From the IMG/VR virus record IMGVR_UViG_3300008113_010842: DNA of 60,918 nt. One strand, 5' to 3'. Below, piece by piece: positions 29,295 to 55,387 of the stretch (positions are counted from its first letter, which is position 1; each line of letters starts with the position of its first letter). Both the position numbers and the translations under genes were made by a program. The stretch is from an uncultured virus (IMG/VR IMGVR_UViG_3300008113_010842). Lineage: Duplodnaviria; Heunggongvirae; Uroviricota; Caudoviricetes. The notes under the pieces were generated by a model. It was not told the DNA's origin and ran no database searches. It was given only the letters and a program-made list of their open reading frames with translations.

Positions 29295-29393
29295 ATGAGA
29301 GCAATTCGTAAACATAGCACATTTAGTAAATCGTCTTGGTTTAGTCACCAAGGTTCGGTACTAAAAGAGTATTGCTCAAATTTAAAGGTATAA
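29295..29393 (+). CDS. Attenuator leader peptide 1, MRAIRKHSTFSKSSWFSHQGSVLKEYCSNLKV
   Basis: R/K/H/S/F/W codon patch matches array 1; contains AGGTTCGG, complementary to the terminator arm. Confidence 0.8.
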   Translation: MRAIRKHSTFSKSSWFSHQGSVLKEYCSNLKV

Positions 29394-29417
29394 AAACTTA
29401 TAAAGACAATATAATTT

Positions 29418-29449
29418 AACCCGAACCTCGAAAGAAGTTCGGGTTTTTT
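29418..29449 (+). terminator. Attenuator terminator 1
   Basis: AACCCGAAC-CTCGAAAGAA-GTTCGGGTT followed by a T-tract. Confidence 0.85.
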
Positions 29450-29473
29450 ATTTATAAAAAATAATTTTTAGAT

Positions 29474-29878
29474 TTGAAACAGATAAGAGATTATAATTAT
29501 AAAATTTCCGAAAGTGGAGAAATAATAAATTTAAGTAATGGTAAAGTTAAAGGTCAATGGATAAACTCAAGTGGTTATTATTGTGTTGAATTAACTATTG
29601 ATAAGTGTAAAAAGAAAAAGTTTTTAACACATAGATTAGTCGCTGAAACATATTTGGAATTACCAATTATTGAAAAAAAAGTACAAATTGATCACATAAA
29701 TAGAAATAGAATAGATAATCACTTTTCAAATTTAAGATGGGTTACATCATCTGAGAATTGTAAAAATAAAAATAGAGTTAAAGTAAAAATGGATGATATT
29801 AATAGCATAATTGAAATGTTCAAAAATGGAGAAACTATTGATAATATTTATAAAATTATAAATTGTTTTTGTCTGTAA
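29474..29878 (+). CDS. NUMOD4/HNH homing endonuclease
   Basis: YKISESGEI, GYYCVEL, HRLVAETY, IDHINRNRIDNHFSNLRWVT..EN; TTG start. Confidence 0.85.
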   Translation: MKQIRDYNYKISESGEIINLSNGKVKGQWINSSGYYCVELTIDKCKKKKFLTHRLVAETYLELPIIEKKVQIDHINRNRIDNHFSNLRWVTSSENCKNKNRVKVKMDDINSIIEMFKNGETIDNIYKIINCFCL

Positions 29879-29921
29879 GAGTGAAGATAGTAGTATAGTT
29901 ACTCGTCATACACCTAAAATT

Positions 29922-29994
29922 GGAACGGTGGCAGATCAGGTGATTGCGCTGGACTGAAAATCCAGAGGAGTGGGTTCGATACCCACCCGTTCCA
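29922..29994 (+). tRNA. tRNA-Phe(GAA)
   Basis: Cloverleaf; anticodon arm CTGGA-CTGAAAA-TCCAG. Confidence 0.9.
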
Positions 29995-30002
29995 CAAATT
30001 TT

Positions 30003-30075
30003 GGACTCGTAGCTTAATCGGGAAAGCACTCCGCTTTTAACGGAGGGAGAGTGGGATCGTAACCCACCGGGTCCA
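30003..30075 (+). tRNA. tRNA-Lys(TTT)
   Basis: CTCCG-CTTTTAA-CGGAG. Confidence 0.9.
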
Positions 30076-30082
30076 CTAATAT

Positions 30083-30155
30083 GATTTCGTAGCTCAGTTG
30101 GTAGAGCACCTCACTTTTAATGAGGGGGTCGTGGGTTCGAACCCCACCGGGATCA
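30083..30155 (+). tRNA. tRNA-Lys(TTT)
   Basis: CCTCA-CTTTTAA-TGAGG. Confidence 0.92.
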
Positions 30156-30157
30156 CT

Positions 30158-30230
30158 GTGAATGTAGCTCAGTTGGTAGAGCGCTTGATTGTGATTCAAG
30201 AGGTAGCGGGATCGTAACCCGTCATTCACC
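30158..30230 (+). tRNA. tRNA-His(GTG)
   Basis: CTTGA-TTGTGAT-TCAAG; C73 discriminator. Confidence 0.92.
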
Positions 30231-30235
30231 AAATT

Positions 30236-30306
30236 ACGTCATACAGACAAGGTGTCGGTCAGGCCTCCAAAACCTCGACGGGTGGGTTCAATTCCTACAT
30301 GGCGTG
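30236..30306 (+). tRNA. tRNA-Trp(CCA), atypical D and anticodon arms
   Basis: Acceptor ACGTCAT/ATGGCGT; loop CTCCAAA; G73. Confidence 0.7.
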
Positions 30307-30314
30307 CTAATAAT

Positions 30315-30442
30315 GGGGATGTAGCTCAGTGGTAGAGAAAACTATCTCTTTTGAAATTTTACCTCGTAAGAGTGTTGATTAAAAGAGTTACTTCGTATAT
30401 TTTGAAATTATAAGGTCGTTGGTTCGAATCCAACCATCCCCA
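30315..30442 (+). tRNA. tRNA-like RNA with ~56-nt insertion (apparent anticodon TGA)
   Basis: Perfect acceptor GGGGATG/CATCCCC, D arm and T arm GTTGG-TTCGAAT-CCAAC; hairpin insert between D and anticodon arms. Confidence 0.6.
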
Positions 30443-30450
30443 CAAAAAAT

Positions 30451-30523
30451 AGTTCCATCGTCTAATGGATGAGGACAGGTCGCTACGAACGATCAAGTGA
30501 AGGTTCGACTCCTTCTGGAACTA
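30451..30523 (+). tRNA. tRNA-Arg(ACG)
   Basis: GGTCG-CTACGAA-CGATC. Confidence 0.88.
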
Positions 30524-30529
30524 CAAATT

Positions 30530-30614
30530 GGAAGAGTAATTAAGCTGGCGCTTGACCTAGTCTTGAAAACTAGTGGTACTTTCGTGGTATGGGGATCGAT
30601 ACCTCACTCTTCCG
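30530..30614 (+). tRNA. tRNA-Ser(TGA)
   Basis: CTAGT-CTTGAAA-ACTAG; long variable arm; G73. Confidence 0.88.
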
Positions 30615-30619
30615 CAAAA

Positions 30620-30705
30620 GGAGAATAAACTAATCTGGTGATTAGGACCGCCTGCTAAGCGAGTTGCACGTGCAATTGTGTGGGGTTCAATTCCTCTGTT
30701 CTCCG
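30620..30705 (+). tRNA. tRNA-Ser(GCT)
   Basis: Loop CTGCTAA; long variable arm; G73. Confidence 0.85.
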
Positions 30706-30711
30706 CTCTGA

Positions 30712-33060: not shown

Positions 33061-33075
33061 ATTTTATCTTTTATT

Positions 33076-36570: not shown

Positions 36571-36653
36571 TAAATAATTTATTTTATTATTCTATATATT
36601 ATTTTCAGAATCGCTTTTTATTTTTTATCTTTGAAAATATAACTCATATTACA

Positions 36654-37243: not shown

Positions 37244-37248
37244 AACAT

Positions 37249-40085: not shown

Positions 40086-40198
40086 AAACTATATATAAAA
40101 AAATAGATAATATTTATATGATATCTGTTTTAGTAGTTAATCTTAATAATTTTTTAAAGAGGAAAAACTTTTTATTATATATACATACAATAAGAAAT

Positions 40199-40270
40199 TG
40201 CGGGGTGGAGTAGTGGAAGCTCGCTAGGCTCATAACCTAGAGGTCGCAGGTTCGAGTCCTGCCCCCGCTA
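40199..40270 (+). tRNA. Initiator-type tRNA-Met(CAT)
   Basis: 1:72 mismatch, fMet-like GCGGGGTGGAG 5' end, CTAGG-CTCATAA-CCTAG. Confidence 0.88.
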
Positions 40271-40289
40271 CAAAAAAATAGATAAAATA

Positions 40290-40321
40290 TTTGGTAGATT
40301 TAAAAAGTCTATTTATATTTG
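40290..40321 (+). promoter_or_regulatory. Bacteroidota-type promoter for leader 2
   Basis: TTTG-GTAGA..(N20)-TATATTTG. Confidence 0.8.
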
Positions 40322-40341
40322 TAAAATAAAAAATAAAAATA

Positions 40342-40410
40342 ATGAATACAATTTCAACATATTATTATAAGGAGAGCAAAGTCTCTGTCAGACGAGTAAG
40401 TATGTCGTAA
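40342..40410 (+). CDS. Attenuator leader peptide 2, MNTISTYYYKESKVSVRRVSMS
   Basis: TAT-TAT-TAT-AAG-GAG patch matches the Tyr/Glu array; TGTCAGAC complements the terminator arm. Confidence 0.8.
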   Translation: MNTISTYYYKESKVSVRRVSMS

Positions 40411-40433
40411 TTGAAATATATTATACAAACTTT

Positions 40434-40467
40434 AAACCCAGTCTGACAATTCAGACTGGGTTTTTTT
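40434..40467 (+). terminator. Attenuator terminator 2
   Basis: AAACCCAGTCTGA-CAAT-TCAGACTGGGTTT plus T-tract. Confidence 0.9.
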
Positions 40468-40470
40468 ATT

Positions 40471-40538
40471 GGGTTGAGTTATGGTGACGGCCGGATCTGT
40501 AAAATCCTAGCAGTTGAGTTCGAGTCTCAGGCAACCCA
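40471..40538 (+). tRNA. Atypical short tRNA-Tyr(GTA)-like
   Basis: Acceptor GGGTTG/CAACCC, GGAT-CTGTAAA-ATCC, T arm; reduced D arm, no long variable arm. Confidence 0.6.
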
Positions 40539-40543
40539 CAAAT

Positions 40544-40615
40544 GTTCCGTTCGTCTAGCGGTAGGACATCTCCCTTTCAAGGAGAAGGTCACGGGTTCGA
40601 ATCCCGTACGGAATA
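40544..40615 (+). tRNA. tRNA-Glu(TTC)
   Basis: TCTCC-CTTTCAA-GGAGA. Confidence 0.9.
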
Positions 40616-40631
40616 CAAGAATTAAAAAAGA

Positions 40632-40663
40632 TTTGGTAGATTAAAAATATTTACTTATCTTTG
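40632..40663 (+). promoter_or_regulatory. Internal Bacteroidota-type promoter within array 2
   Basis: TTTG-GTAGA..(N20)-TATCTTTG. Confidence 0.8.
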
Positions 40664-40680
40664 TAAAACAAAAAACAAAT

Positions 40681-40752
40681 GGTCCCATCGTCTAATGGTT
40701 AGGACGTTAGGTTTTCATCCTAGAAATCGGAGTTCGATCCTCCGTGGGACTA
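40681..40752 (+). tRNA. tRNA-Glu(TTC)
   Basis: TTAGG-TTTTCAT-CCTAG. Confidence 0.9.
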
Positions 40753-40847
40753 CAAAAGTCGGAGTAATTAACCGACTCTAACAAGAAGATGGTTCATATA
40801 GCTTAAAGAGATTTGCTAGCACTAATTTCTGGAAGTCTTCTTGATTA

Positions 40848-40923
40848 ACTACTTATGGTGTAAATTGGATTGCACGCGGGTCATTCGGCCCGAGGGTTGT
40901 AGGTTCGAGTCCTATGGGTAGTT
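40848..40923 (+). tRNA. tRNA-like RNA of undetermined identity (6-nt anticodon loop CATTCG)
   Basis: Acceptor ACTACTT/GGGTAGT, D arm, CGGGT-CATTCG-GCCCG, T arm GTAGG-TTCGAGT-CCTAT. Confidence 0.6.
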
Positions 40924-40930
40924 CAAATAT

Positions 40931-41012
40931 TGGAAGGTGGGTGAGTGGCTAAAACCGGCAGACTGTAAATCTGCTCTCTTTGAGTACGGGGGTTCGAATC
41001 CCTCCCTTCCAA
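40931..41012 (+). tRNA. tRNA-Tyr(GTA)
   Basis: GCAGA-CTGTAAA-TCTGC; class II variable arm. Confidence 0.92.
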
Positions 41013-41040
41013 CTTTTTTTATTTTCTTCATAAAACAAAG

Positions 41041-42078
41041 ATGGAGAATGAAGTTGTAATAATAACATCACATGCTAATACAGATTTTAAGTTAGACATT
41101 TTAAATGAATGTATCCAATATATTAAGTCATTTGGGTATCAAATCATTTTATCATCACATATTTCTGTTCCGGATTCTATACTGGATGATGTAGATTTTT
41201 TTGTCTATGATAAAGAAAATAGAATTATTAATTATTGGGAATATCAAGAAATTCCATCAGGCTATTATAAATACATAAATTTTGATGAATATCAGCATAC
41301 TATATCATCTGAGTTTGACCATGGTTATTCTGTATTGAGACTTATAAGAAATGGACTGAGCTTAGCGAGTATCAATGGATTTACAAAATCACATATTGTA
41401 GATTACGATTATATAATAAAAGATTCAAATTTTTTTAGAGAAAACACAAAATATTTAGGTAATCTTTATGATATCATAGGTTATCGATGTCATGATTATT
41501 ACTTTACTACAGGTATTTTTTCAGTTGTTTGTGATAAAATACTACCAGTATTACAAAGTATAAATTCAGTTGAGGCTTATAGCCAAATTCATTTAGAAAC
41601 AATAGATGATAATAAACTGACAAATAGTGGTGTTTTAGAAAACATATTTTTTTATTTAATTAAAAAAAATAATCTGAGTTTTTTTAATATCGAAGAAAAA
41701 GATTTAGACTTAGAATTGAATGAATTTGATAAAATAAATGTTTTTAATAATTTTTATTTGATTCAAGGAACTTCTATTGAGATTTTCAAATCAACCGATG
41801 GCTTTTTTGACTACCTAACTTTGCTTAATTATGGAACAATCTTAGAATATATAGAGATTCATTATAAAGAAAATTGTTCTATAAAAATAAATTACAATAA
41901 TATCTATGAAAAATCACAATCCGAAAATTCACATATTTCTATTTTAAAATTACCAGATTGGTTAAAAGATATTGAATTTACAATTGAGGCCATAGGTTAT
42001 GGGAAAAAGACTATAAGAAAAAACGAGAATAAAGCACAATGTCAAATAAAAAATCAAAATATTATTTTTGAAATTTAA
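41041..42078 (+). CDS. Hypothetical protein, possibly glycosyltransferase-related
   Basis: 345 aa; IILSSH...DFFVYDKEN...HGYSV...DYD pattern. Confidence 0.7.
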   Translation: MENEVVIITSHANTDFKLDILNECIQYIKSFGYQIILSSHISVPDSILDDVDFFVYDKENRIINYWEYQEIPSGYYKYINFDEYQHTISSEFDHGYSVLRLIRNGLSLASINGFTKSHIVDYDYIIKDSNFFRENTKYLGNLYDIIGYRCHDYYFTTGIFSVVCDKILPVLQSINSVEAYSQIHLETIDDNKLTNSGVLENIFFYLIKKNNLSFFNIEEKDLDLELNEFDKINVFNNFYLIQGTSIEIFKSTDGFFDYLTLLNYGTILEYIEIHYKENCSIKINYNNIYEKSQSENSHISILKLPDWLKDIEFTIEAIGYGKKTIRKNENKAQCQIKNQNIIFEI

Positions 42079-42145
42079 AAAAAATAACTAATTTTGTAAA
42101 AAGAAAGATAAAACTTTTTATATATAACAACATATAATAGAAACA

Positions 42146-42229
42146 ATGAAAAATTTAACTAACATATCACAAGCAGTTATAGCGACAGGCGCGGGGCGTT
42201 TGGTCGAGAGACTGAGTTATGTTATGTAA
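42146..42229 (+). CDS. Attenuator leader peptide 3, MKNLTNISQAVIATGAGRLVERLSYVM
   Basis: GCA-GTT-ATA-GCG-ACA-GGC-GCG-GGG patch matches the Ile(TAT)/Gly/Ala array; GAGACTGAGTTA complements the terminator arm. Confidence 0.8.
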   Translation: MKNLTNISQAVIATGAGRLVERLSYVM

Positions 42230-42253
42230 GATTTTGACTTTACATATTTATTT

Positions 42254-42283
42254 AACCCAGTCTCAAAAAGATTGGGTTTTTTT
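42254..42283 (+). terminator. Attenuator terminator 3
   Basis: AACCCAGTCT-CAAAA-AGATTGGGTT plus T-tract. Confidence 0.88.
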
Positions 42284-42287
42284 ATTT

Positions 42288-42361
42288 TGGTGAGTAGCTT
42301 AGACGGTAGAAGCACGTGTCTTATACACACGAGATAGTGGGTTCGATACCCACCTCACCAA
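42288..42361 (+). tRNA. tRNA-Ile(TAT)
   Basis: CGTGT-CTTATAC-ACACG. Confidence 0.85.
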
Positions 42362-42366
42362 CAAAA

Positions 42367-42438
42367 GCGGGTATCGTATAATGGTTATTACACCGGCCTT
42401 CCAAGTCGGTGATGTCAGTTCGATTCTGGTTACCCGCA
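42367..42438 (+). tRNA. tRNA-Gly(TCC)
   Basis: CCGGC-CTTCCAA-GTCGG. Confidence 0.88.
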
Positions 42439-42442
42439 CTAC

Positions 42443-42518
42443 GGGCTAGCATGTTCCAAGGCTTCGGCGACTTACCCTTGCAAGGTAGGTGTGGTGGGTT
42501 CGATTCCCATCTGGTCCA
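42443..42518 (+). tRNA. tRNA-Ala(TGC)
   Basis: TTACC-CTTGCAA-GGTAG; G3:U70 pair. Confidence 0.8.
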
Positions 42519-42528
42519 CAAAAAATAA

Positions 42529-42603
42529 GCGAGAGTAGCTCAGTGGTAGAATGTCTGCTTGCCAAGCAGAAGGTCGCGGGTTCGAATCCCGTCTCTCGCT
42601 CCA
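42529..42603 (+). tRNA. tRNA-Gly(GCC)
   Basis: TCTGC-TTGCCAA-GCAGA; U73; encoded CCA. Confidence 0.93.
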
Positions 42604-42607
42604 ATAT

Positions 42608-42644
42608 GCCGGTTGACCCACGTTGAATCGCGGTGCCGGCTCCA
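42608..42644 (+). ncRNA. tRNA minihelix-like RNA ending UCCA
   Basis: GCCGGT/GCCGGC stem, inner T-arm-like hairpin, 3' TCCA. Confidence 0.45.
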
Positions 42645-42717
42645 GGGGGATTAGCTCATTTGGCGGAGCGTTTGAATGGCATTCAAAAGGTGACGAGTTC
42701 GATCCTCGTATCCTCCA
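42645..42717 (+). tRNA. tRNA-Ala(GGC)
   Basis: TTTGA-ATGGCAT-TCAAA; G3:U70 pair. Confidence 0.9.
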
Positions 42718-42737
42718 CAAAAATTAATATATACTAA

Positions 42738-42920
42738 ATGACAATATTTAAAAACATATTAGATGGTAAGCTCTACACTATTTACAAAAATAGTGATGGA
42801 ACACTTACTGCATTTCCATCTGGTAAAGTTTTCGATAGAAACTCAATTTTAAAAGATTGTAAAATTGAAGACTTTGTTGTTTTTAAAATTGAAACTAATA
42901 AAATTAAAGGTTTTATATAA
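42738..42920 (+). CDS. Hypothetical protein
   Basis: 60-aa ORF after TTAATATATAC. Confidence 0.6.
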   Translation: MTIFKNILDGKLYTIYKNSDGTLTAFPSGKVFDRNSILKDCKIEDFVVFKIETNKIKGFI

Positions 42921-46710: not shown

Positions 46711-46742
46711 TTTGGTAGAATTAAAACTTTTATCTAAATTTG
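46711..46742 (+). promoter_or_regulatory. Bacteroidota-type promoter for leader 4
   Basis: TTTG-GTAGA..(N20)-TAAATTTG. Confidence 0.8.
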
Positions 46743-46799
46743 TATAAAATAATGACAAAAAAGTCAAAAGAGACAATTAATTTATAATATATAACAACA

Positions 46800-46913
46800 A
46801 TGAGAACAAATACGACAAATATGATGAACCTGACACTCAATGTGGTGAATATTACGTTATGTAATATTAGACCTTCTGAGGGTTCCTTCCTATTTAGAAA
46901 ATTTGTCTCGTGA
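46800..46913 (+). CDS. Attenuator leader peptide 4, MRTNTTNMMNLTLNVVNITLCNIRPSEGSFLFRKFVS
   Basis: Codons 2-24 encode only R/T/N/M/L/V/I/C, the amino acids of array 4; TCTGAGGGTTC is the exact complement of the terminator arm. Confidence 0.88.
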   Translation: MRTNTTNMMNLTLNVVNITLCNIRPSEGSFLFRKFVS

Positions 46914-46944
46914 ATGTGACGTATTTATAACTAAATATAAAAAG

Positions 46945-46974
46945 AACCCTCAGATAAAAATCTGAGGGTTTTTT
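46945..46974 (+). terminator. Attenuator terminator 4
   Basis: AACCCTCAGAT-AAAA-ATCTGAGGGTT plus T-tract. Confidence 0.9.
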
Positions 46975-46989
46975 GTTTTAATAAAATTT

Positions 46990-47062
46990 GGCTCCTTCGT
47001 TCAACGGGACAGGACATCGCTCTTCTAAAGCGAGGATACAGGTTCGAATCCTGTAGGAGCTA
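46990..47062 (+). tRNA. tRNA-Arg(TCT)
   Basis: TCGCT-CTTCTAA-AGCGA. Confidence 0.9.
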
Positions 47063-47069
47063 CTAAAAT

Positions 47070-47158
47070 GGGCTTGTAGCTGATTTGGTTTTAGCTGGTG
47101 ACTGTTAATCACTGTATGAAAAATTGAAATAAAGTAGGTTCGAATCCTGCCTGGCCCG
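47070..47158 (+). tRNA. tRNA-Asn(GTT) with ~20-nt variable region
   Basis: GGTGA-CTGTTAA-TCACT; G73. Confidence 0.75.
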
Positions 47159-47169
47159 CAAAAATAAAT

Positions 47170-47240
47170 GTCCTGATGGCGTAATGGGAGCGTGTTAGTG
47201 TTACATACTAACGGTACTGGTTCGAGTCCAGTTCAGGATA
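47170..47240 (+). tRNA. tRNA-Val(TAC)
   Basis: TTAGT-GTTACAT-ACTAA. Confidence 0.82.
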
Positions 47241-47247
47241 CTAAAAT

Positions 47248-47320
47248 TGTCAGTTAGCTCATTTGGTAGAGCACTTGTCTGATACACAAGAGGTGGTGGG
47301 ATCGTAACCCGCACTGACAA
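47248..47320 (+). tRNA. tRNA-Ile(GAT)
   Basis: CTTGT-CTGATAC-ACAAG. Confidence 0.9.
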
Positions 47321-47326
47321 CAAATT

Positions 47327-47399
47327 GACACCGTGTCTGAATGGCTTAGGTCCCAGTCTGCAAAACTGTGGTATGTCGGTTCGAACCCGACCGGTGTCT
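47327..47399 (+). tRNA. tRNA-Cys(GCA)
   Basis: CAGT-CTGCAAA-ACTG; U73. Confidence 0.88.
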
Positions 47400-47405
47400 C
47401 AATAA

Positions 47406-47477
47406 GCTTCTTAAGCATTAATGGTGATGCGCTAGTCTTGTAAACTAGAGAAATCGGATCGTTACCGGTAAGAAGCT
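47406..47477 (+). tRNA. tRNA-Thr(TGT)
   Basis: CTAGT-CTTGTAA-ACTAG. Confidence 0.88.
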
Positions 47478-47480
47478 CAA

Positions 47481-47597
47481 TAACAGATGGTGATTGAAAG
47501 TGTTACTTCGTTTAATGGATAAACAATTGACTTCTAATCAATACTTCGGTGGTTCGATTCCACCAGTAAAAACCTCTTTCAGGACTTTCCTCTGTTA
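47481..47597 (+). tRNA. tRNA-Arg(TCT)-like core (47501-47572) inside an extended hairpin
   Basis: ATTGA-CTTCTAA-TCAAT, T arm GGTGG-TTCGATT-CCACC; flanks TAACAGA/TCTGTTA and TGAAAG/CTTTCA pair. Confidence 0.55.
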
Positions 47598-47602
47598 TAT
47601 CT

Positions 47603-47693
47603 GCCTCAGTGGCGAAATTTGGTTGAAACGCGCTAGACTTAGGATCTAGTACCCAAGTGGCAAACGTTGTCGGTTCGAGTCCGACCTGAGGTA
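47603..47693 (+). tRNA. tRNA-Leu(TAG)
   Basis: CTAGA-CTTAGGA-TCTAG; long variable arm. Confidence 0.9.
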
Positions 47694-47700
47694 CAAAATT

Positions 47701-47791
47701 GCTCCAGTGGCGAAACTGGTTGAAACGCATGGGACTTAAAATCCCATACCCTATGAGGTGAACGTTGTCGGTTCGAATCCGACCTGGAGTA
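47701..47791 (+). tRNA. tRNA-Leu(TAA)
   Basis: TGGGA-CTTAAAA-TCCCA; long variable arm. Confidence 0.9.
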
Positions 47792-47797
47792 CAAAAT

Positions 47798-47867
47798 GCC
47801 GCGGCTTAGTGGAAAAGGACATTGGCTCATATCCTGTGTTAAGTGAGTTCGAACCTCATACGCGGTA
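47798..47867 (+). tRNA. Atypical tRNA with CAT anticodon (Met or Ile2)
   Basis: Acceptor GCCGCG/CGCGGT, loop CTCATAT, reduced D arm, elongated anticodon stem. Confidence 0.6.
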
Positions 47868-47875
47868 CAATATAA

Positions 47876-47948
47876 GCCCCTGTGACGTAATTGGTAGTCG
47901 TATTCGTTTCAAATGCGGAGTGTCCGAGTTCGAATCTCGGTAGGGGTA
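47876..47948 (+). tRNA. tRNA with CAA (Leu) anticodon but short variable loop
   Basis: TTCGT-TTCAAAT-GCGGA; 4-nt variable loop. Confidence 0.65.
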
Positions 47949-47981
47949 CAAACCAGATATATAAATAAAAAAAAATATATT

Positions 47982-48902: not shown

Positions 48903-48904
48903 AA

Positions 48905-51139: not shown

Positions 51140-51173
51140 AAGGTATATATTAAAAAAATAATATACCAAATAT

Positions 51174-51204
51174 TTTGCCAATTAGATAATTTGTATTATC
51201 TTTG
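51174..51204 (+). promoter_or_regulatory. Bacteroidota-type promoter
   Basis: TTTG-N19-TATCTTTG. Confidence 0.7.
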
Positions 51205-51234
51205 TATAGTAAAAGAATATCTAAACTTAAACAA

Positions 51235-52458: not shown

Positions 52459-52467
52459 TAATTTGAT

Positions 52468-52668
52468 ATGAAGCCTGTAAAAGACAGATGGATAACACAA
52501 AGTGTTAGATATACTAAGGTAGAGTTTCATAATAAGATATTTCGGAGATATCACTACTGTTATAAAGGAAGAACTACTGATATACTTTGGCTATCATCTG
52601 ATAGGTCATTCCTTCCAGAGTCATTAGAAAATAAATTAGAAAATGAATTCCAAAAAGAAGTCGATTAA
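52468..52668 (+). CDS. Hypothetical protein
   Basis: 66-aa ORF in operon. Confidence 0.6.
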   Translation: MKPVKDRWITQSVRYTKVEFHNKIFRRYHYCYKGRTTDILWLSSDRSFLPESLENKLENEFQKEVD

Positions 52669-52693
52669 AACCGACTTTTAAAATTTTTAACAT

Positions 52694-52831
52694 ATGAACA
52701 TTATAAAAAAATATAGAAGAAAAAGAAAACTCACTGATATAATATACAAGGAATTTGAAAAATCATTGAAAGATGGTGATTATCAAAGGGCATGTATTTT
52801 GTCTCATAGACTTTTAAAACTTAAAATATGA
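52694..52831 (+). CDS. Small hypothetical protein (45 aa, absent from ORF track)
   Basis: Fills a gap; stop overlaps the next start (ATGA). Confidence 0.5.
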   Translation: MNIIKKYRRKRKLTDIIYKEFEKSLKDGDYQRACILSHRLLKLKI

Positions 52832-53313
52832 CAATTAGTGAATTAAAATTGATAATTGATGAAAAAACTAATTCATCAAAAAAACTACATAAGCAACTAA
52901 CTGAACTACATCAAGAACTGAATTCTTTAAGAAACCAGTTTAATCAACTCGAAATGGAAGAGTTTGTAAATTACTTACAGATTGGAGAAGTTATTGAATT
53001 TGATAATTATTACTCATTAAAGGGTTACTGTAGAGATCCTAAATCTACAAATTCATTTCAATCTGGTGAAAAGATTAAGATTCTTAAAAAAAATAAAAAA
53101 TCTATTGTCATTGAAGTGATTAAAAAGTTTCAGAGAAGATGGGATGATGTTCAAAAAAAATCAGTTATTGTTGGTGAGACAAATCCTGGTTGGAACATAA
53201 GAGTTGATTTAGATTCATTTTTTCATTTTTATTTAAAAAGAAAAACTATGAAAGATGCTTTTGATTCATATGTAAAAAGAAAACACGCACTAGATAGTCT
53301 ATTTGATGAATAA
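52828..53313 (+). CDS. Hypothetical protein
   Basis: 161-aa ORF. Confidence 0.75.
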   Translation: MTISELKLIIDEKTNSSKKLHKQLTELHQELNSLRNQFNQLEMEEFVNYLQIGEVIEFDNYYSLKGYCRDPKSTNSFQSGEKIKILKKNKKSIVIEVIKKFQRRWDDVQKKSVIVGETNPGWNIRVDLDSFFHFYLKRKTMKDAFDSYVKRKHALDSLFDE

Positions 53314-53755
53314 AGAAGTTGAAATATTAAAGATAGGTAATATTATGCCAGTTCTTCCAATAAAAGGAACTAGAGTTTATGATACTTCTCAGTTTAGAGA
53401 CAAACAAACTATTATGGTGGTTTCTGATGGAGGGTATCTTTTTGATTACTACATCAACATACTAAGAAGTAATTGTGATGATTACAACTACTTAAAAACA
53501 GCAAAGTCAATTGTTGGAAAGCCTCAAACCTTTAGGAGCTCTTTGGTTGGAAATCAACCTGTAGATACACTAAAAGGTCTTTCAGATGGTGATCCACAAA
53601 TAGGTCAATCATATACCATAAATAATTCAAGTTGGTATACATCTAAAGTTGAAAAAATAATAGATGGTTGTGTTATCATCACAAAAAATTCTGTTTATGC
53701 AATACATAATGTTTCTGATGTCAGAGATAGCAAATTGAGAAATATAGGAATTTAG
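53303..53755 (+). CDS. Hypothetical protein
   Basis: 150-aa ORF with TSKV..I......TKNSVY motif. Confidence 0.75.
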   Translation: MMNKEVEILKIGNIMPVLPIKGTRVYDTSQFRDKQTIMVVSDGGYLFDYYINILRSNCDDYNYLKTAKSIVGKPQTFRSSLVGNQPVDTLKGLSDGDPQIGQSYTINNSSWYTSKVEKIIDGCVIITKNSVYAIHNVSDVRDSKLRNIGI

Positions 53756-53779
53756 TATTTCTATTTTAATATATACTCT

Positions 53780-54139
53780 ATGAAGTATATTAAACCCATA
53801 AATGAGTTTAACCGAACTATTGGATTCAGATATTCTAAACCGACAAATAAATTTAGAACTATTTTTTATTGTTTTGGTGAATTAATCCAAGAAGATTTAT
53901 CTAATTTATTAGAACATCTAGATATACCCTATGAAAATATCTCAATAGTTAATGATGATGGTACTATTTCTTTTGAAGATGGTGAATCAGAATATAATTT
54001 ACAATTGTCATTTGATTTTGCAGTTTATAGTGAGCAAGAAATAGAAAAGATAATACAAGATGTTAGATTTGGCTTAAGTAGAGAATTTGATGTGGAAACA
54101 ATTCATTTTCTCATAAAAGAATTGCCAAGATTAAAATGA
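53780..54139 (+). CDS. Hypothetical protein
   Basis: MKYIKPINEF N-terminus; upstream TTTAATATATA. Confidence 0.75.
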   Translation: MKYIKPINEFNRTIGFRYSKPTNKFRTIFYCFGELIQEDLSNLLEHLDIPYENISIVNDDGTISFEDGESEYNLQLSFDFAVYSEQEIEKIIQDVRFGLSREFDVETIHFLIKELPRLK

Positions 54140-54885
54140 AACATTTAAAAAGATTTAATGAAGGCGTTGGTATTGTCAATATAAATTCTAATCCAGAAAT
54201 GGATAGAATGCCAAATTTACAACACAGAGGTAATAATTTAGAAAATGGTAAAAATATTTCTATGTTTGAACAAGATTGGTTTGAAAAGTTATTACCAGAT
54301 ACTTTAGAGGTTCAATCTTGTCCGATGATAAAAAAACTTAACTTTGATCAAAGTTTATCAGATTTGAATACTGAAAATAGAATCTACACTCTTGTTAAAA
54401 ATGATTGCACTATCGACAGTGATTTGATACAATTTAATTATTATCAAAATACATTTGACAAACCAGAAGATGTTATAAATGATGGTGAACCAGATTTATT
54501 GGAATTTGATATTCATTTTGTAAAAAATGAATCTGGTATAAAGTTATTAGTAGATATAACCTATGGTGATAATATGGCATATGAATTTTCATTAGAAACT
54601 CCTAATAAAATTAATGTAATTCACTACACTGGTAAAGGCTCTTTACATGATTCTGAAACTCACTGGGGTTTTACTGAAAAATCAATAGGTGATATAGTTA
54701 AGTTTTTTAATGCTTTTAATCACGGTATAAAAGTTGATAATGATGATTTTAATTTTTTAGACTCAAGTGAAGATAGTTATAAATATGATAATAAAAATAA
54801 ACAACAACTATACTCTGATGATTCTAATCTTTTGAATTTTGGAAATTCAACTAAGGAGTCGATAAAAAAATTTAAAAATTTTTAA
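54136..54885 (+). CDS. Hypothetical protein, paralog of 48309..48902
   Basis: MKHLKRFNEG N-terminus; shared core motif. Confidence 0.8.
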   Translation: MKHLKRFNEGVGIVNINSNPEMDRMPNLQHRGNNLENGKNISMFEQDWFEKLLPDTLEVQSCPMIKKLNFDQSLSDLNTENRIYTLVKNDCTIDSDLIQFNYYQNTFDKPEDVINDGEPDLLEFDIHFVKNESGIKLLVDITYGDNMAYEFSLETPNKINVIHYTGKGSLHDSETHWGFTEKSIGDIVKFFNAFNHGIKVDNDDFNFLDSSEDSYKYDNKNKQQLYSDDSNLLNFGNSTKESIKKFKNF

Positions 54886-54978
54886 TTATATTTTTTTTAA
54901 TTAAAACTTATTTCTATATTTGTAGTATAATTTTGACAAATAATTAAAAGAGGTAAAAATAATTTAATATATACTAAA

Positions 54979-55074
54979 ATGAACAACGTAATTGTAAATA
55001 TCGCAGTAGTTAACCCACAACCGCAGGATCAGGATCGTGTGAGAGTGGCTAACTATGTATTTACAATAAGTTAA
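54979..55074 (+). CDS. Attenuator leader peptide 5, MNNVIVNIAVVNPQPQDQDRVRVANYVFTIS
   Basis: CCA-CAA-CCG-CAG-GAT-CAG-GAT patch matches the Gln/Asp/Pro array; TGGCTAACT pairs with the terminator arm. Confidence 0.85.
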   Translation: MNNVIVNIAVVNPQPQDQDRVRVANYVFTIS

Positions 55075-55097
55075 TGTTTAATTAAAAACGAATTTGT

Positions 55098-55132
55098 AAA
55101 ACCCGGTTAGTCAAAATCTAATCGGGTTTTTT
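55098..55132 (+). terminator. Attenuator terminator 5
   Basis: AAAACCCGGTTAG-TCAAAAT-CTAATCGGGTTTT plus T-tract. Confidence 0.88.
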
Positions 55133-55142
55133 GTTATTATAT

Positions 55143-55215
55143 TGTCGGGTCGTCTAGTTTGGCAGGACGCAAGATTTTGGCTCTTGAAACACAGGTTCGA
55201 TGCCTGTCTCGACAT
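55143..55215 (+). tRNA. tRNA-Gln(TTG)
   Basis: CAAGA-TTTTGGC-TCTTG; U1:A72. Confidence 0.88.
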
Positions 55216-55222
55216 CAAATAC

Positions 55223-55295
55223 GGATGTGAGGTCAAACGGTTAAGATGTCTGCCTGTCACGCAGTTCGGAGCGGGTTCAACTCCCGTCACGTCCG
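55223..55295 (+). tRNA. tRNA-Asp(GTC)
   Basis: CTGC-CTGTCAC-GCAG; G73. Confidence 0.88.
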
Positions 55296-55304
55296 CTAAA
55301 ATTT

Positions 55305-55387
55305 CGGGATGTAGCCTAGAGGTTACGCAAGTTAGAGGCACTTGGTTTGGGACCAAGACGACGCAGGTTCGATTCCTGTCATCCCGA
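55305..55387 (+). tRNA. tRNA-Pro(TGG) with enlarged D loop
   Basis: CTTGG-TTTGGGA-CCAAG; C1:G72. Confidence 0.85.

What the first reader, a model, noticed from the sequence alone, without database searches (positions are those of the whole stretch)
29295..55387. Five codon-matched leader-peptide attenuators gate the phage tRNA arrays: a candidate tRNA-shortage sensing system
Seen: every multi-tRNA array (starting 29922, 40471, 42288, 46990, 55143) has the same upstream layout. It runs promoter, 22-37 codon ORF, AT-rich spacer, intrinsic terminator (AACCC...GGGTT-T-tract), then tRNAs. Each ORF has a codon patch for the amino acids of its own array: RKHS.FSKSSWFSH; YYY.E; A.IA.GAG; RTNTTNMMNLTLNVVNITLCNIR; PQPQDQD. 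One to four codons after each patch is an 8-12 nt segment complementary to the 5' arm of that terminator. The five terminators differ in sequence and each antiterminator co-varies with its own. Established: this is the logic of trp/his/thr-type ribosome-mediated attenuation, which normally controls amino-acid biosynthesis or synthetase genes. Inference: stalling on the patch leaves the antiterminator free and induces exactly the missing tRNAs. The trigger could be starvation or host defences that destroy tRNA (PrrC, RloC, PARIS AriB, VapC). I know of no description of attenuator-controlled phage tRNA arrays, but could not search the literature.
Basis: partly seen in the sequence, partly recalled or inferred. 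Interest (0 to 1): 0.97.

Follow-up and report, generated by a model that had tools for sequence, protein, structure and literature searches.

The report
Leader-peptide attenuators gate phage tRNA arrays
A huge lake-water phage puts a tiny translated "test" gene and a conditional stop signal in front of each block of its own tRNA genes, apparently so that slow reading of particular codons switches on exactly the tRNAs that read them; this classic bacterial control device does not seem to have been described for tRNA genes.

Summary
All five multi-tRNA arrays in the window follow the same layout. A Bacteroidetes-type promoter comes first. A 22-37 codon ORF follows, enriched in codons read by that array's tRNAs, then an intrinsic terminator, then the tRNAs. 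In four units the tRNAs start 9-19 nt after the terminator stem. In unit 1 an HNH gene intervenes.

I found 48 such units in 10 related huge-phage genomes, plus 59 distinct versions of one leader. Leader content follows array content. Gln-only arrays have poly-Gln leaders, Arg/Ser arrays have SSRSRSS, and a fused Glu/Tyr/Gly/Ile/Ala array has a fused patch. The match holds at synonymous-codon level (ATA vs ATT, AGA vs CGN).

A segment just 3' of each patch pairs with the terminator's 5' arm and co-varies with it. An upstream segment inside the patch pairs with that segment first. This is the 1:2 / 2:3 / 3:4 architecture of trp/his-type attenuators.

The same clade places matching leaders before aminoacyl-tRNA synthetase genes (IIII before IleRS, VVVV before ValRS, NNRNR before AsnRS).

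Best reading: ribosome-mediated attenuation acting as feedback on phage tRNA supply. Nothing is shown experimentally. Ten literature searches found no prior description. A link to host defence remains speculation.

The parts
29207..29238 (+). Unit 1 promoter: -33 TTTG (29207-29210) and -7 TAATTTTG (29231-29238), Bacteroidetes-type
   Evidence: A TAnnTTTG box lies within 140 nt upstream in 37 of 48 units, against 0.14 expected per 140 nt
29295..29393 (+). Unit 1 leader ORF MRAIRKHSTFSKSSWFSHQGSVLKEYCSNLKV
   Evidence: homologues in 7 other genomes
29307..29348 (+). Unit 1 codon patch RKHSTFSKSSWFSH. 13 of 14 codons encode amino acids of the array; Thr is the exception. The Arg codon is CGT, read by Arg(ACG)
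   Evidence: 7 of the best 8 codons readable by the array, p=0.0003
29348..29359 (+). Unit 1 antiterminator segment (region 2), core GGTTCGG, pairs with CCGAACC of the terminator 5' arm
   Evidence: -13.8 kcal/mol, shuffle fraction 0.027
29418..29451 (+). Unit 1 intrinsic terminator AACCCGAACC..GTTCGGGTT plus T-tract
29474..29878 (+). HNH_3/NUMOD4 homing-endonuclease-like ORF inserted between terminator 1 and array 1
   Evidence: PF13392 E=1.3e-9; PF07463 E=4e-5
29922..30706 (+). Array 1: Phe(GAA), Lys(UUU) x2, His(GUG), Trp(CCA), a tRNA-like gene with an insertion (30311-30444), Arg(ACG), Ser(UGA), Ser(GCU)
40290..40321 (+). Unit 2 promoter: -33 TTTG (40290-40293), -7 TATATTTG (40314-40321)
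40342..40410 (+). Unit 2 leader ORF MNTISTYYYKESKVSVRRVSMS
40360..40374 (+). Unit 2 codon patch YYYKE (Tyr, Glu)
   Evidence: 4 of 8, p=0.067; the weakest unit. Relatives have YESYYEE, YYYEE and YYYEAE
40385..40394 (+). Unit 2 antiterminator segment, core GTCAGAC, pairs with GTCTGAC of the terminator 5' arm and loop
   Evidence: -12.4 kcal/mol, shuffle fraction 0.007
40434..40469 (+). Unit 2 intrinsic terminator AAACCCAGTCTGA..TCAGACTGGGTTT plus T-tract
40471..41013 (+). Array 2: weak Tyr(GUA) at about 40471, Glu(UUC) x2, an odd tRNA-like gene (40848-40924), Tyr(GUA)
42067..42096 (+). Unit 3 promoter: -33 TTTG (42067-42070), -7 TAATTTTG (42089-42096)
42146..42229 (+). Unit 3 leader ORF MKNLTNISQAVIATGAGRLVERLSYVM
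42173..42196 (+). Unit 3 codon patch AVIATGAG. The Ile codon is ATA, read by Ile(UAU)
   Evidence: (6 of 8, p=0.010)
42207..42220 (+). Unit 3 antiterminator segment, core GAGACTG, pairs with CAGTCTC of the terminator 5' arm
   Evidence: -15.1 kcal/mol, shuffle fraction 0.003. Relatives have GTGGCTG paired with CAGTCAC, a compensatory change
42254..42285 (+). Unit 3 intrinsic terminator AACCCAGTCTC..GATTGGGTT plus T-tract
42288..42718 (+). Array 3: Ile(UAU), Gly(UCC), Ala(UGC), Gly(GCC), Ala(GGC)
46711..46742 (+). Unit 4 promoter: -33 TTTG (46711-46714), -7 TAAATTTG (46735-46742)
46800..46913 (+). Unit 4 leader ORF MRTNTTNMMNLTLNVVNITLCNIRPSEGSFLFRKFVS
   Evidence: 59 distinct homologues
46803..46871 (+). 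Unit 4 codon patch, codons 2-24. All 23 codons encode amino acids of the array (R,T,N,M,L,V,I,C). Arg is AGA and Ile is ATT, matching Arg(UCU) and Ile(GAU)
   Evidence: (8 of 8, p=0.002)
46848..46868 (+). Conserved hairpin AATATTAC-GTTAT-GTAATATT inside the patch. I infer it is part of the 1:2 structure and a possible RNA polymerase pause hairpin
   Evidence: 87.5% of cells paired, no covariation
46874..46886 (+). Unit 4 antiterminator segment TCTGAGGGTTC pairs with GAACCCTCAGA
   Evidence: -20.4 kcal/mol, 0 of 300 shuffles; covariation
46941..46976 (+). Unit 4 intrinsic terminator (AAAG)AACCCTCAGAT..ATCTGAGGGTT plus T-tract
   Evidence: 94% of cells paired across 57 sequences
46990..47949 (+). 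Array 4: Arg(UCU), Asn, Val(UAC), Ile(GAU), Cys, Thr(UGU), Arg(UCU), Leu(UAG), Leu(UAA), Met(CAU), Leu(CAA)
54915..54922 (+). Unit 5 -7 box TATATTTG. No TTTG at -33
54979..55074 (+). Unit 5 leader ORF MNNVIVNIAVVNPQPQDQDRVRVANYVFTIS
55015..55035 (+). Unit 5 codon patch PQPQDQD
   Evidence: (5 of 8, p=0.0067, scored before the third tRNA was re-read as Pro)
55046..55067 (+). Unit 5 antiterminator segment, core GGCTAAC(T), pairs with (G)GTTAGTC
   Evidence: -14.1 kcal/mol, shuffle fraction 0.013. P(2:3) is 0.10 without a ribosome and 0.78 with a ribosome on the patch
55098..55136 (+). Unit 5 intrinsic terminator AAAACCCGGTTAGTC..TAATCGGGTTTT plus T-tract
55143..55388 (+). Array 5: Gln(UUG), Asp(GUC), and a Pro(UGG)-like tRNA with an enlarged D region, which ARAGORN calls Leu(GAG)

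Best explanation
Each unit is a ribosome-mediated (leader-peptide) transcription attenuator of the trp/his/ilv type. Here it controls a block of phage tRNA genes instead of biosynthetic genes.

Proposed sequence of events:
1. Transcription starts at a Bacteroidetes-type promoter.
2. The short leader ORF is translated while RNA polymerase moves on.
3. If the charged tRNAs for the patch codons are plentiful, the ribosome runs through the patch. Region 1, inside the patch, pairs with region 2, just 3' of the patch. The terminator (regions 3:4) forms, and transcription stops a few bases before the first tRNA.
4. If decoding of the patch codons is slow, the ribosome sits on region 1. Region 2 pairs with the terminator's 5' arm (region 3), the terminator cannot form, and the array is transcribed.

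The patch codons are the ones read by the array's own tRNAs. The circuit is therefore negative feedback: the phage makes a given set of tRNAs until those codons are read fast enough. In relatives the same design sits in front of phage aminoacyl-tRNA synthetase genes. The whole phage decoding apparatus thus appears to be organised in amino-acid-specific attenuator regulons.

Shown from sequence and comparison: the layout, the codon match, the alternative pairings and their covariation, and reading-frame conservation. Inferred: translation of the leaders, the direction and size of the response, the role of kinetics, and the physiological trigger.
For: 1. Layout. All 5 multi-tRNA arrays of the window have the layout. 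There are 48 units in 10 genomes. In 37 of 48 units the first detected tRNA starts 31 nt or less after the terminator stem. That leaves no room for a separate promoter, so the tRNAs can only be made by read-through.

2. Codon match in the window. p = 0.0003, 0.067, 0.010, 0.002 and 0.0067 for units 1-5, combined 7e-8. Across all 48 units, codons upstream of the antiterminator are readable by the unit's own array in 466 of 947 cases. From the antiterminator to the stop codon the figure is 68 of 400.

3. Natural experiments:
- Gln-only arrays have leaders MTTSFQQQQQQQINRTD, MTTTQQIQQQQINQTD, MRTTTQYQQQQQINPTD and MNNLVQQVQQQQ...
- Arg/Ser arrays have ..SSRSRSS.. leaders.
- In one genome the Glu/Tyr and Ile/Gly/Ala arrays are fused, and its single leader has a fused patch, IYIGYIAEGGYEAG.

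4. Synonymous-codon specificity:
- Leaders of arrays with Ile(UAU) only hold 17 ATA and 3 ATT/ATC. Leaders of arrays with Ile(GAU) only hold 0 and 14 (Fisher 1e-6).
- Arrays with Arg(UCU/CCU): 12 AGR and 1 CGN. Arrays with Arg(ACG etc.): 4 and 11. The background is 1515 AGR to 204 CGN.

5. Translation. All 10 gap runs in the patch region of the 57-sequence alignment are multiples of three. After the stop codon only 10 of 35 are.

6. Antiterminator:
- The duplex with the terminator 5' arm beats dinucleotide shuffles at 0.05 or better in 16 of 19 units, and in 5 of 5 in the window.
- Cognate beats swapped within families, 0 of 2000 permutations.
- For 59 distinct NLVIT leaders, cognate is -19.3 and swapped -15.1 kcal/mol, 0 of 5000.
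- Alignment counts: 81% of cells paired against 30-49% when slid, covariation 0.206 against 0.087. On the larger alignment, 75% against 33-53%.

7. Region 1:2. Before the terminator is transcribed, region 2 is predicted to pair with a segment in codons about 4-16 in 45 of 48 units.

8. Ribosome footprint scan. P(2:3) is at least 0.5 with the ribosome on patch codons in 48 of 48 units. It falls to 0.35 or less just beyond the patch in 45 of 48.

9. The same architecture precedes aaRS genes in relatives, with matching amino acids:
- IIII before IleRS
- VVVV before ValRS
- NNRNR before AsnRS plus an ArgRS-like gene
- HFHFHF before a HisRS-like gene plus a PheS-related ligase
- DD before AspRS
- LLL before a LeuRS-like gene

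10. Negative control. The same detection rule finds 0 units in the tRNA regions of two unrelated tRNA-rich phages, with 22 and 23 tRNAs.
Against: There are no expression data of any kind. No RNA run holding the sequence was listed, so translation and conditional termination are not shown.

Equilibrium folding does not give a clean 'off' state:
- Without a ribosome the antiterminator is already favoured (P at least 0.5) in 37 of 48 units.
- With the ribosome at the stop codon, P falls to half or less of the patch value in only 17 of 48.
- Termination in the unstalled state therefore rests on the kinetic assumption that 1:2 forms first.

Some patches are short or statistically weak: window unit 2 has p=0.067, and two W01 units have p=0.097 and p=0.38.

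Tracking is not perfect at fine scale:
- All 9 NLVIT leaders keep a Cys codon, yet only 3 of 9 arrays hold a detected tRNA-Cys.
- Phe/His/Trp/Lys leaders keep Ser codons where the Ser tRNAs sit in a separate unit.
- Pro/Asp leaders keep Gln codons where Gln has its own downstream unit.
- Non-array residues occur inside patches: Thr in unit 1, Lys in unit 2, Val and Thr in unit 3.

Several tRNA identities rest on low ARAGORN thresholds or on likeness to relatives.

The related genomes are not independent samples, so permutation p-values overstate independence.

In unit 1 an HNH gene separates terminator and array, and it could carry its own promoter.
Confidence: 0.85

Rival explanations
1. The architecture is an attenuator, but the signal it evolved to read is damage to the tRNA pool by host defences (anticodon nucleases such as PrrC, RloC, VapC-like toxins or PARIS). 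On this view the arrays are an inducible counter-defence rather than a general supply feedback.
For: A stall-to-read-through switch would respond to any loss of decodable tRNA. RNA-ligase genes lie next to leader-controlled HisRS-like genes in two relatives. From recall: phage tRNAs have been proposed to replace cleaved host tRNAs. [quoted passage not shown]
Against: No data here bear on the trigger. The leaders cover nearly all amino acids (Phe, His, Trp, Lys, Arg, Ser, Glu, Tyr, Ile, Gly, Ala, Asn, Leu, Val, Thr, Cys, Met, Pro, Asp, Gln). By recall, known anticodon nucleases hit only a few tRNAs such as Lys, Glu, Gln and fMet. aaRS genes are under the same control, which points to general decoding capacity. 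No defence or anti-defence gene was identified in the window.
Confidence: 0.15
2. The short ORFs are ordinary small phage genes, or non-functional ORFs, with ordinary leaky terminators. The tRNA arrays are expressed by constitutive read-through, and the codon match is a by-product.
For: The AACCC...GGGTT hairpin with a T-tract is also the general terminator style of these phages at the ends of protein genes. Parts of the leader peptide are conserved, for example NVVNITLCNIRPSEG.
Against: This reading does not explain several results.
- Patch content follows array content across split and fused arrays.
- Synonymous codon choice follows the anticodon.
- The ORF segment after the patch co-varies with the terminator 5' arm even at the cost of amino-acid changes, for example AGA (Arg) to TGG (Trp) in the Ile/Gly/Ala family.
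- The patch always ends where a stalled ribosome would begin to cover the antiterminator.
- The conserved peptide stretch coincides with a conserved RNA hairpin.
Confidence: 0.04
3. The element is a translation-independent RNA switch that binds tRNA directly, in the manner of a T-box. The 'ORF' is incidental.
For: The physiological logic is the same: sensing tRNA status to control translation genes. T-boxes are the usual device for aaRS genes in many bacteria (recall).
Against: Rfam finds no T-box or any other cis-regulatory family in the window at gathering threshold or at E up to 1 in two of the leader regions. ATG, stop codon and frame are conserved, with indels in threes. The patches are runs of many codons for up to eight amino acids, not one specifier codon. 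The leaders are only about 130-180 nt long, with no conserved T-box-like sequence.
Confidence: 0.03
4. The polarity is reversed. Efficient translation of the leader, when tRNAs are plentiful, promotes read-through, and stalling causes termination. This would occur through loss of transcription-translation coupling or through Rho.
For: Equilibrium folding already favours the antiterminator without a ribosome in 37 of 48 units. The default state is therefore not settled by thermodynamics.
Against: A ribosome on patch codons leaves 2:3 intact in 48 of 48 units. A ribosome just past the patch destroys 2:3 in 45 of 48. That is the geometry of stall-to-read-through. Positive feedback, in which more tRNA leads to still more tRNA, makes little regulatory sense. 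The aaRS leaders with cognate codon runs parallel the pheST attenuator of E. coli, which by recall is derepressed by shortage.
Confidence: 0.05

Closest known systems
Leader-peptide attenuators of amino-acid biosynthetic operons in enterobacteria (trpL, hisL, pheL, leuL, thrL, ilvL)
   Same: Both have a short translated leader with a run of regulatory codons, followed by an intrinsic terminator. Both have a segment that can pair either upstream (1:2) or with the terminator 5' arm (2:3). Several leaders here report on several amino acids at once, as ilvL (Ile/Leu/Val) and thrL (Thr/Ile) do. The poly-Gln leaders resemble the seven-His run of hisL. These names and properties are from recall. The pheL mechanism was read in passages of PMC3082878.
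   Different: The controlled genes here are tRNA genes, in relatives also aaRS genes, and not biosynthetic enzymes. The product is sensed directly by the codons it reads. The element belongs to a phage. It has a Bacteroidetes-type promoter and no Shine-Dalgarno sequence. The patches cover up to eight amino acids and 23 codons. There is no sequence likeness to Rfam leader families.
pheM leader / pheST attenuator of E. coli (control of phenylalanyl-tRNA synthetase)
   Same: Both apply leader-peptide attenuation to a gene of the translation apparatus, with codons of the cognate amino acid. This is the direct parallel of the aaRS leaders found in the relatives. The comparison is from recall.
   Different: pheM is a single known case in a bacterial chromosome, controlling a protein gene. 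Here a whole set of units covers about 20 amino acids, and most of them control tRNA genes.
T-box riboswitches
   Same: Both have the same physiological input, the charging state of a specific tRNA. Both use the same output logic, terminator versus antiterminator, upstream of translation-related genes (recall).
   Different: T-boxes bind the uncharged tRNA directly and are not translated. No T-box match was found. The present elements have conserved ORFs.
tRNA gene clusters of other phages (T4-like Aeromonas phage Aswh_1, Klebsiella phage phi1_175008)
   Same: Both are dense head-to-tail arrays of phage tRNA genes.
   Different: With the same detection rule, 0 terminator-plus-leader units precede tRNAs in these two regions. 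The E. coli tRNA-Phe genes pheV and pheU also start directly after their promoters, with no leader ORF.

Membership tests
Ribosome-mediated (leader-peptide) transcription attenuator | Short ORF with start and stop codon between the promoter and the regulated genes, conserved as a reading frame | tested here: met
   There are 5 ORFs of 22-37 codons in the window and 48 units in 10 genomes. In the patch region, 10 of 10 gap runs are multiples of three, against 10 of 35 after the stop codon.
Ribosome-mediated (leader-peptide) transcription attenuator | Enrichment of codons whose decoding reports on the regulated function | tested here: met
   Window p = 0.0003 to 0.067 per unit, combined 7e-8. 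Patch content follows array content. The match is specific at synonymous-codon level.
Ribosome-mediated (leader-peptide) transcription attenuator | Intrinsic terminator between the leader and the regulated genes, with no separate promoter behind it | tested here: met
   Hairpins of 10-15 bp followed by a T-tract. The gap to the first tRNA is 31 nt or less in 37 of 48 units. Unit 1 of the window is an exception, with 476 nt and an HNH gene.
Ribosome-mediated (leader-peptide) transcription attenuator | Antiterminator: a segment that pairs with the terminator 5' arm and excludes the terminator | tested here: met
   Duplexes beat shuffles in 16 of 19 units. Covariation is seen. This is prediction and comparison only, with no structure probing.
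Ribosome-mediated (leader-peptide) transcription attenuator | Anti-antiterminator (1:2) pairing that overlaps the regulatory codons, so that a stalled ribosome frees region 2 | tested here: met
   Region 2 is predicted to pair with codons about 4-16 in 45 of 48 units. Equilibrium folding alone does not give a clean off state: the antiterminator is already favoured without a ribosome in 37 of 48 units.
Ribosome-mediated (leader-peptide) transcription attenuator | The leader is translated, and read-through rises when the cognate charged tRNA is limiting | not testable with these tools
   No RNA run was listed. Testing needs reporter assays, Term-seq or Ribo-seq.
Curated Rfam leader families (Trp_leader, His_leader, Leu_leader, Thr_leader and the like; names from recall) | Match to the family covariance model | tested here: not met
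   Only tRNA matches at gathering score over the whole window. Nothing relevant at E up to 1 in 29200-30600 and 40150-42800. These leaders are therefore not members of a described family.
T-box riboswitch | Specifier loop and conserved T-box sequence; match to the Rfam T-box model | tested here: not met
   No match.

The most novel reading that the evidence does not exclude
The huge Bacteroidetes-infecting phages of this clade carry a self-contained, codon-resolved regulator of translation capacity. Essentially all of their tRNA arrays and many of their aminoacyl-tRNA synthetase genes are wired, amino acid by amino acid, to leader peptides that measure how fast the infected cell reads exactly those codons. 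The phage would then rebuild whichever part of the decoding apparatus is failing. The cause could be a codon-usage mismatch, host shut-off, starvation, or host nucleases that destroy tRNAs. In the last case the system would be an inducible, self-limiting counter-defence.
Probability: 0.2. Interest if true: 0.95.

Novelty: new variant of a known kind. Interest (0 to 1): 0.88.

Why it matters
Leader-peptide attenuation is a textbook mechanism. As far as 10 full-text searches and my own knowledge reach, it has been described only for amino-acid biosynthesis genes and a few other protein genes, including one synthetase operon. It has not been described for tRNA genes or for a virus.

Three points make it worth attention:

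- **Regulation of phage tRNAs.** Phage tRNAs would not be simply co-expressed cargo. They would be regulated set by set, through a feedback loop in which the product is measured by the codons it decodes. This gives a concrete, testable answer to the long-standing question of why and when large phages use their own tRNAs.
- **A regulon for translation.** The same logic extends to phage aaRS genes in relatives. That suggests a whole regulon for translational autonomy.
- **Practical uses.** The leaders give a way to read the intended specificity of odd phage tRNAs. The patch predicted Trp, Ser, Ala, Met and Pro tRNAs that the default tRNA finder missed or mis-called. They also provide a compact set of amino-acid-specific sensors for Bacteroidota.

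Tried and rejected
- **Whole genome of the window:** none is held.
- **Expression:** no RNA holder was listed for window:40100-48000, so I did not lay reads.
- **A recalled precedent:** I remembered that E. coli pheU/pheV tRNA genes have an attenuator-like Phe leader. This is not borne out. Both genes start a few bases after their promoters, with no ORF.
- **RNAalifold on 9 NLVIT leaders:** it recovers only the terminator and two small helices, not 1:2 or 2:3.
- **The conserved hairpin inside the NLVIT patch:** it shows no covariation. Its role as a pause hairpin is only a guess.
- **MAFFT alignment of 57 leaders:** MAFFT misaligns the most divergent antiterminator variants (GGTTCGGG, ATCTGGG). 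The alignment-based covariation is therefore diluted. 'Further pair types' was below the shuffle mean (12 against 15.4), and 'pairs with a change on both sides' was not significant (133 of 500). The alignment-free cognate-versus-swapped test is the stronger one.
- **Pfam on 31 window ORFs:** no aaRS or tRNA-repair gene lies inside the window.
- **Clade name:** I first thought the relatives were 'Whopperphages'. The passage read in PMC7162821 places the genomes above 634 kb in the 'Mahaphage' clade, with Bacteroidetes hosts. Linking LR756502.1 and LR745206.1 to that paper is my inference from their lengths.
- **Literature searches with nothing relevant:**. The main text of PMC7162821 has 0 occurrences of 'attenuat' or 'leader'. 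I did not see its supplements.

Full report
**What is in the window**

The window has 29% G+C. Its closest named relatives are two uncultured-phage genomes of 642 and 635 kb, LR756502.1 and LR745206.1, at about 74-77% nucleotide identity over the tRNA region. By their lengths they correspond to genomes described in PMC7162821. That paper says all genomes above 634 kb are predicted to replicate in Bacteroidetes and fall in its 'Mahaphage' clade (passages read). The link between records and paper is my inference.

Default ARAGORN finds 27 tRNA genes, all on the + strand. They form five clusters plus one lone tRNA-Met. Rfam reports only tRNAs.

**The layout**

Upstream of each cluster the sequence reads as follows:
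- a TTTG ... TAnnTTTG promoter of the Bacteroidetes type (coordinates; the consensus itself is from recall);
- an AT-rich stretch, often holding TTTAATATATA;
- an ATG-initiated ORF of 22-37 codons;
- a spacer of 23-31 nt;
- a strong hairpin of the form AACCC...GGGTT followed by a T-tract;
- the first tRNA.

The first detected tRNA starts 9-19 nt after the hairpin stem in units 3-5. In unit 2 the weak Tyr(GUA) gene starts about 8 nt after it. Unit 1 has 476 nt, holding an HNH/NUMOD4 endonuclease ORF. Because there is no room for another promoter, the tRNAs can only be made by read-through of the terminator.

**The codon match**

With ARAGORN at lower thresholds, every array gains tRNAs for amino acids already present in its leader patch. 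These are Trp and two Ser in array 1, Ala(UGC) in array 3, Met in array 4 and a weak Tyr in array 2. The third gene of array 5, called Leu(GAG) by ARAGORN, shares its anticodon arm and acceptor stem with the Pro(UGG) genes of relatives.

The result per unit:
- Leader 4: all 23 patch codons are for amino acids of array 4.
- Leader 1: 13 of 14.
- Leader 5: PQPQDQD sits before Gln, Asp and Pro.

I scored the best 8-codon window readable by the unit's own array, using standard wobble rules. Against 20000 random coding segments of the same length, the five units give p = 0.0003, 0.067, 0.010, 0.002 and 0.0067. The combined value is 7e-8. In leader-by-array matrices the diagonal is highest. The exception is the column of the very large Asn/Leu/Val/Ile/Thr array, which reads many common codons.

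**Relatives**

I collected related sequence from three sources:
- the tRNA regions of the two named genomes;
- five IMG/VR contigs of 152-508 kb, plus two shorter ones;
- 73 metagenome loci.

An automated rule looked for a terminator followed within 700 nt by a tRNA, with a 12-60 codon ORF ending within 75 nt upstream. After one ORF was corrected by hand, it gave 48 units in 10 genomes, in seven leader families plus one fused form.

These provide natural experiments.
- Where Gln tRNAs form their own array, its leader is a Gln run, for example MTTSFQQQQQQQINRTD.
- Where Arg and Ser tRNAs form their own array, the leader reads ..SSRSRSS...
- In the most divergent genome the Glu/Tyr and Ile/Gly/Ala arrays are fused. 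Its single leader carries the fused patch IYIGYIAEGGYEAG.

The match holds between synonymous codons.
- Ile is ATA in leaders of arrays with Ile(UAU) only (17 ATA, 3 ATT/ATC). It is ATT/ATC with Ile(GAU) only (0 and 14).
- Arg is AGR with Arg(UCU/CCU) (12 and 1). It is CGN with Arg(ACG and relatives) (4 and 11). CGN makes up only 204 of 1719 Arg codons in the phages' long ORFs.

A functional peptide would not explain this.

Overall, 466 of 947 codons upstream of the antiterminator are readable by the unit's own array. From there to the stop codon the figure is 68 of 400.

The frame is conserved. All 10 gap runs in the patch part of a 57-sequence alignment are multiples of three, against 10 of 35 after the stop codon.

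**RNA structure**

In each unit a segment just 3' of the patch is complementary to the terminator's 5' arm. The best duplex beats 300 dinucleotide shuffles at 0.05 or better in 16 of 19 units of the first three genomes. In the window the fractions are 0.027, 0.007, 0.003, 0.000 and 0.013.

When the transcript is cut before the terminator's 3' arm, the minimum-energy fold pairs the 5' arm with that segment in 14 of 19 units, by my reading. In the window this holds for units 2, 3 and 4.

The two segments change together between genomes. Examples I read:
- GTTCGG:CCGAAC against ATTCGA:TCGAAT;
- GGTTCGA:TCGAACT against GATTCGA:TCGAATC;
- GAGACTG:CAGTCTC against GTGGCTG:CAGTCAC, the last at the cost of an Arg-to-Trp change in the peptide.

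Formal tests agree.
- Within-family cognate duplexes are more stable than swapped ones. The observed sum is -644.9 against -564.2 +/- 13.2, reached by 0 of 2000 permutations.
- For 59 distinct Asn/Leu/Val/Ile/Thr leaders there are about 40 different antiterminator/arm combinations, including wholly different cores such as GGTTCGGGTT:AACCCGAACC and ATCTGGGTT:AACCCAGAT. Cognate is -19.3 and swapped -15.1 kcal/mol, 0 of 5000.
- On a 9-sequence alignment, 81% of cells pair, against 30-49% when slid. Covariation is 0.206 against 0.087 +/- 0.025.
- On a 57-sequence alignment, 75% pair, against 33-53% when slid. Cells with a change on both sides number 48 against 23.7 +/- 6.4. Two other measures are not significant.
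- The terminator itself is 94% paired.

**Four-region logic**

Before the terminator is transcribed, the antiterminator segment (region 2) is predicted to pair with an upstream segment in codons about 4-16, inside the patch. This holds in 45 of 48 units.

I then masked a 30-nt ribosome footprint at every codon in turn. The probability that the terminator 5' arm is held by region 2 stays at 0.5 or more while the A site is on patch codons, in 48 of 48 units (mean 0.77). It falls to 0.35 or less within a few codons past the patch in 45 of 48 (mean minimum 0.14). The 3' end of every patch thus coincides with the last position at which a stalled ribosome leaves the antiterminator free.

There is a caveat. 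At equilibrium the antiterminator is already favoured without a ribosome in 37 of 48 units. A ribosome at the stop codon lowers it by half in only 17 of 48. The terminated state therefore depends on region 1:2 forming first, as in the classical kinetic model. I could not simulate this.

**Independent corroboration from aaRS genes**

I scanned the same loci for strong terminators not followed by tRNAs. This turned up further short ORF-terminator units 30-45 nt upstream of protein genes, 166 nt in one case. Pfam and NCBIfam identify these genes as aminoacyl-tRNA synthetases whose amino acid matches the leader:

| Leader | Gene(s) downstream | Score |
|---|---|---|
| MNFNTIIIIRYS.. | IleRS | TIGR00392, 674 bits, above cut-off |
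| ..NNVVVVNRN.. | ValRS | partial fetch, below cut-off |
| ..INNRNRL.. | AsnRS, then an ArgRS-like gene | TIGR00457, 394 bits, above cut-off |
| ..THFHFHFE.. | HisRS-like gene, then a PheS-related ligase | NF051887, 434 bits |
| ..KLKDD.. and ..KLADD.. | AspRS | NF003483, above cut-off |
| ..NILLLPLT | LeuRS-like gene | below cut-off |

Two further units with weak patches (..LHTYK..) precede a HisRS-like gene and an RNA ligase. None of these lies in the window.

**Controls**

The same detection rule finds no unit in the tRNA regions of two unrelated tRNA-rich phages, with 22 and 23 tRNAs.

**Interpretation**

The five units are leader-peptide transcription attenuators that gate phage tRNA arrays. 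Shortage of decodable charged tRNA for the patch codons should give read-through. Because the arrays encode the tRNAs for those codons, the loop is a negative feedback on phage tRNA supply.

Some relatives have internal units without a promoter of their own. Poly-Gln leaders, for example, follow directly after the Pro/Asp array. This suggests attenuators in series within one transcript.

Whether the physiological trigger is codon-usage mismatch, host shut-off, starvation or tRNA-cleaving defence cannot be told from sequence.

**Comparison with what is known, and novelty**

All defining sequence features of a ribosome-mediated attenuator are met. The functional ones cannot be tested here. The leaders match no Rfam family. 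The closest precedents are the multivalent ilv/thr leaders and the pheM-pheST attenuator (recall).

Ten full-text searches found no paper that links leader peptides or attenuators with phage tRNA genes, tRNA arrays or huge phages. The main text of the huge-phage paper does not mention them. I did not see its supplements, and subscription journals are outside the library.

I therefore rate this as a new variant of a known kind of mechanism, of high interest.

Noticed in passing
L010:3899-6254, L010:12375-14898, L028:117-1556, L028:8545-9999, L029:11056-12961, L005:18214-19640, L011:6566-8099 (relatives, not the window): Leader-ORF plus terminator units of the same design precede phage aminoacyl-tRNA synthetase genes, and the codon runs match the amino acid: IIII with IleRS, VVVV with ValRS, NNRNR with AsnRS plus an ArgRS-like gene, HFHFHF with a HisRS-like gene plus a PheS-related ligase, DD with AspRS, LLL with a LeuRS-like gene.
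   Followed up: partly
window 29474-29878: An HNH_3/NUMOD4 homing-endonuclease-like ORF sits between terminator 1 and tRNA array 1, so it is formally under the attenuator. One relative has a different small ORF in the equivalent place of its Asn/Leu/Val/Ile/Thr unit (L001:1782-1983).
   Followed up: partly
window 30311-30444: A tRNA-like gene has normal acceptor, D and T arms but about 60 extra bases in the anticodon region. This may be an intron or other insertion. Rfam scores only its 3' part (27.5 bits, below threshold).
   Followed up: no
window 55305-55388; L024 homologue: A Pro(UGG)-like tRNA has an enlarged D region. ARAGORN mis-calls it as Leu(GAG) in the window and Ser(GGA) in a relative. 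The leader patch (PQPQDQD) predicted the right identity.
   Followed up: yes
window 40848-40924: ARAGORN reports a tRNA with a two-base 'anticodon' (tt) inside array 2. Rfam does not score it. Similar odd calls occur in relatives (L006).
   Followed up: no
window 40199-40271: A lone tRNA-Met(CAU) lies just upstream of the unit 2 promoter and has no leader or terminator of its own. A tRNA-Met occupies the same place in LR756502.1, LR745206.1 and other relatives.
   Followed up: no
window 29270-29294, 42118-42145, 46770-46799, 54955-54978: A conserved AT-rich motif (TTTAATATATA or a close variant) lies 8-15 nt upstream of the leader ATG in most units (TWATATA present in 31 of 48). It may be a translation-initiation signal in a host group that rarely uses Shine-Dalgarno sequences.
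   Followed up: partly
L005:14937-15045, L011:9638-9751, L024 about 17590-17698: Poly-Gln leaders follow directly after the last tRNA of the Pro/Asp array, with no recognisable promoter. Two attenuators appear to act in series on one transcript, and a leader would be translated from a tRNA precursor RNA.
   Followed up: partly
L029:11861-12961: The gene behind the HFHFHF leader matches the NCBIfam model 'PheS-related mystery ligase SrmL' (434 bits, cut-off 300). The leader suggests that its function is tied to Phe and/or His decoding.
   Followed up: no
window 46941-46974: Terminator 4 is flanked by an A-tract and a T-tract, and the consensus scan calls it on both strands. It may be bidirectional. 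The A-tract side is also the part that co-varies with the antiterminator.
   Followed up: partly
L003:10183-10836, L008:8320-9033: RNA-ligase genes (PF09414) lie in the same leader-controlled operons as HisRS-like genes in two relatives.
   Followed up: no
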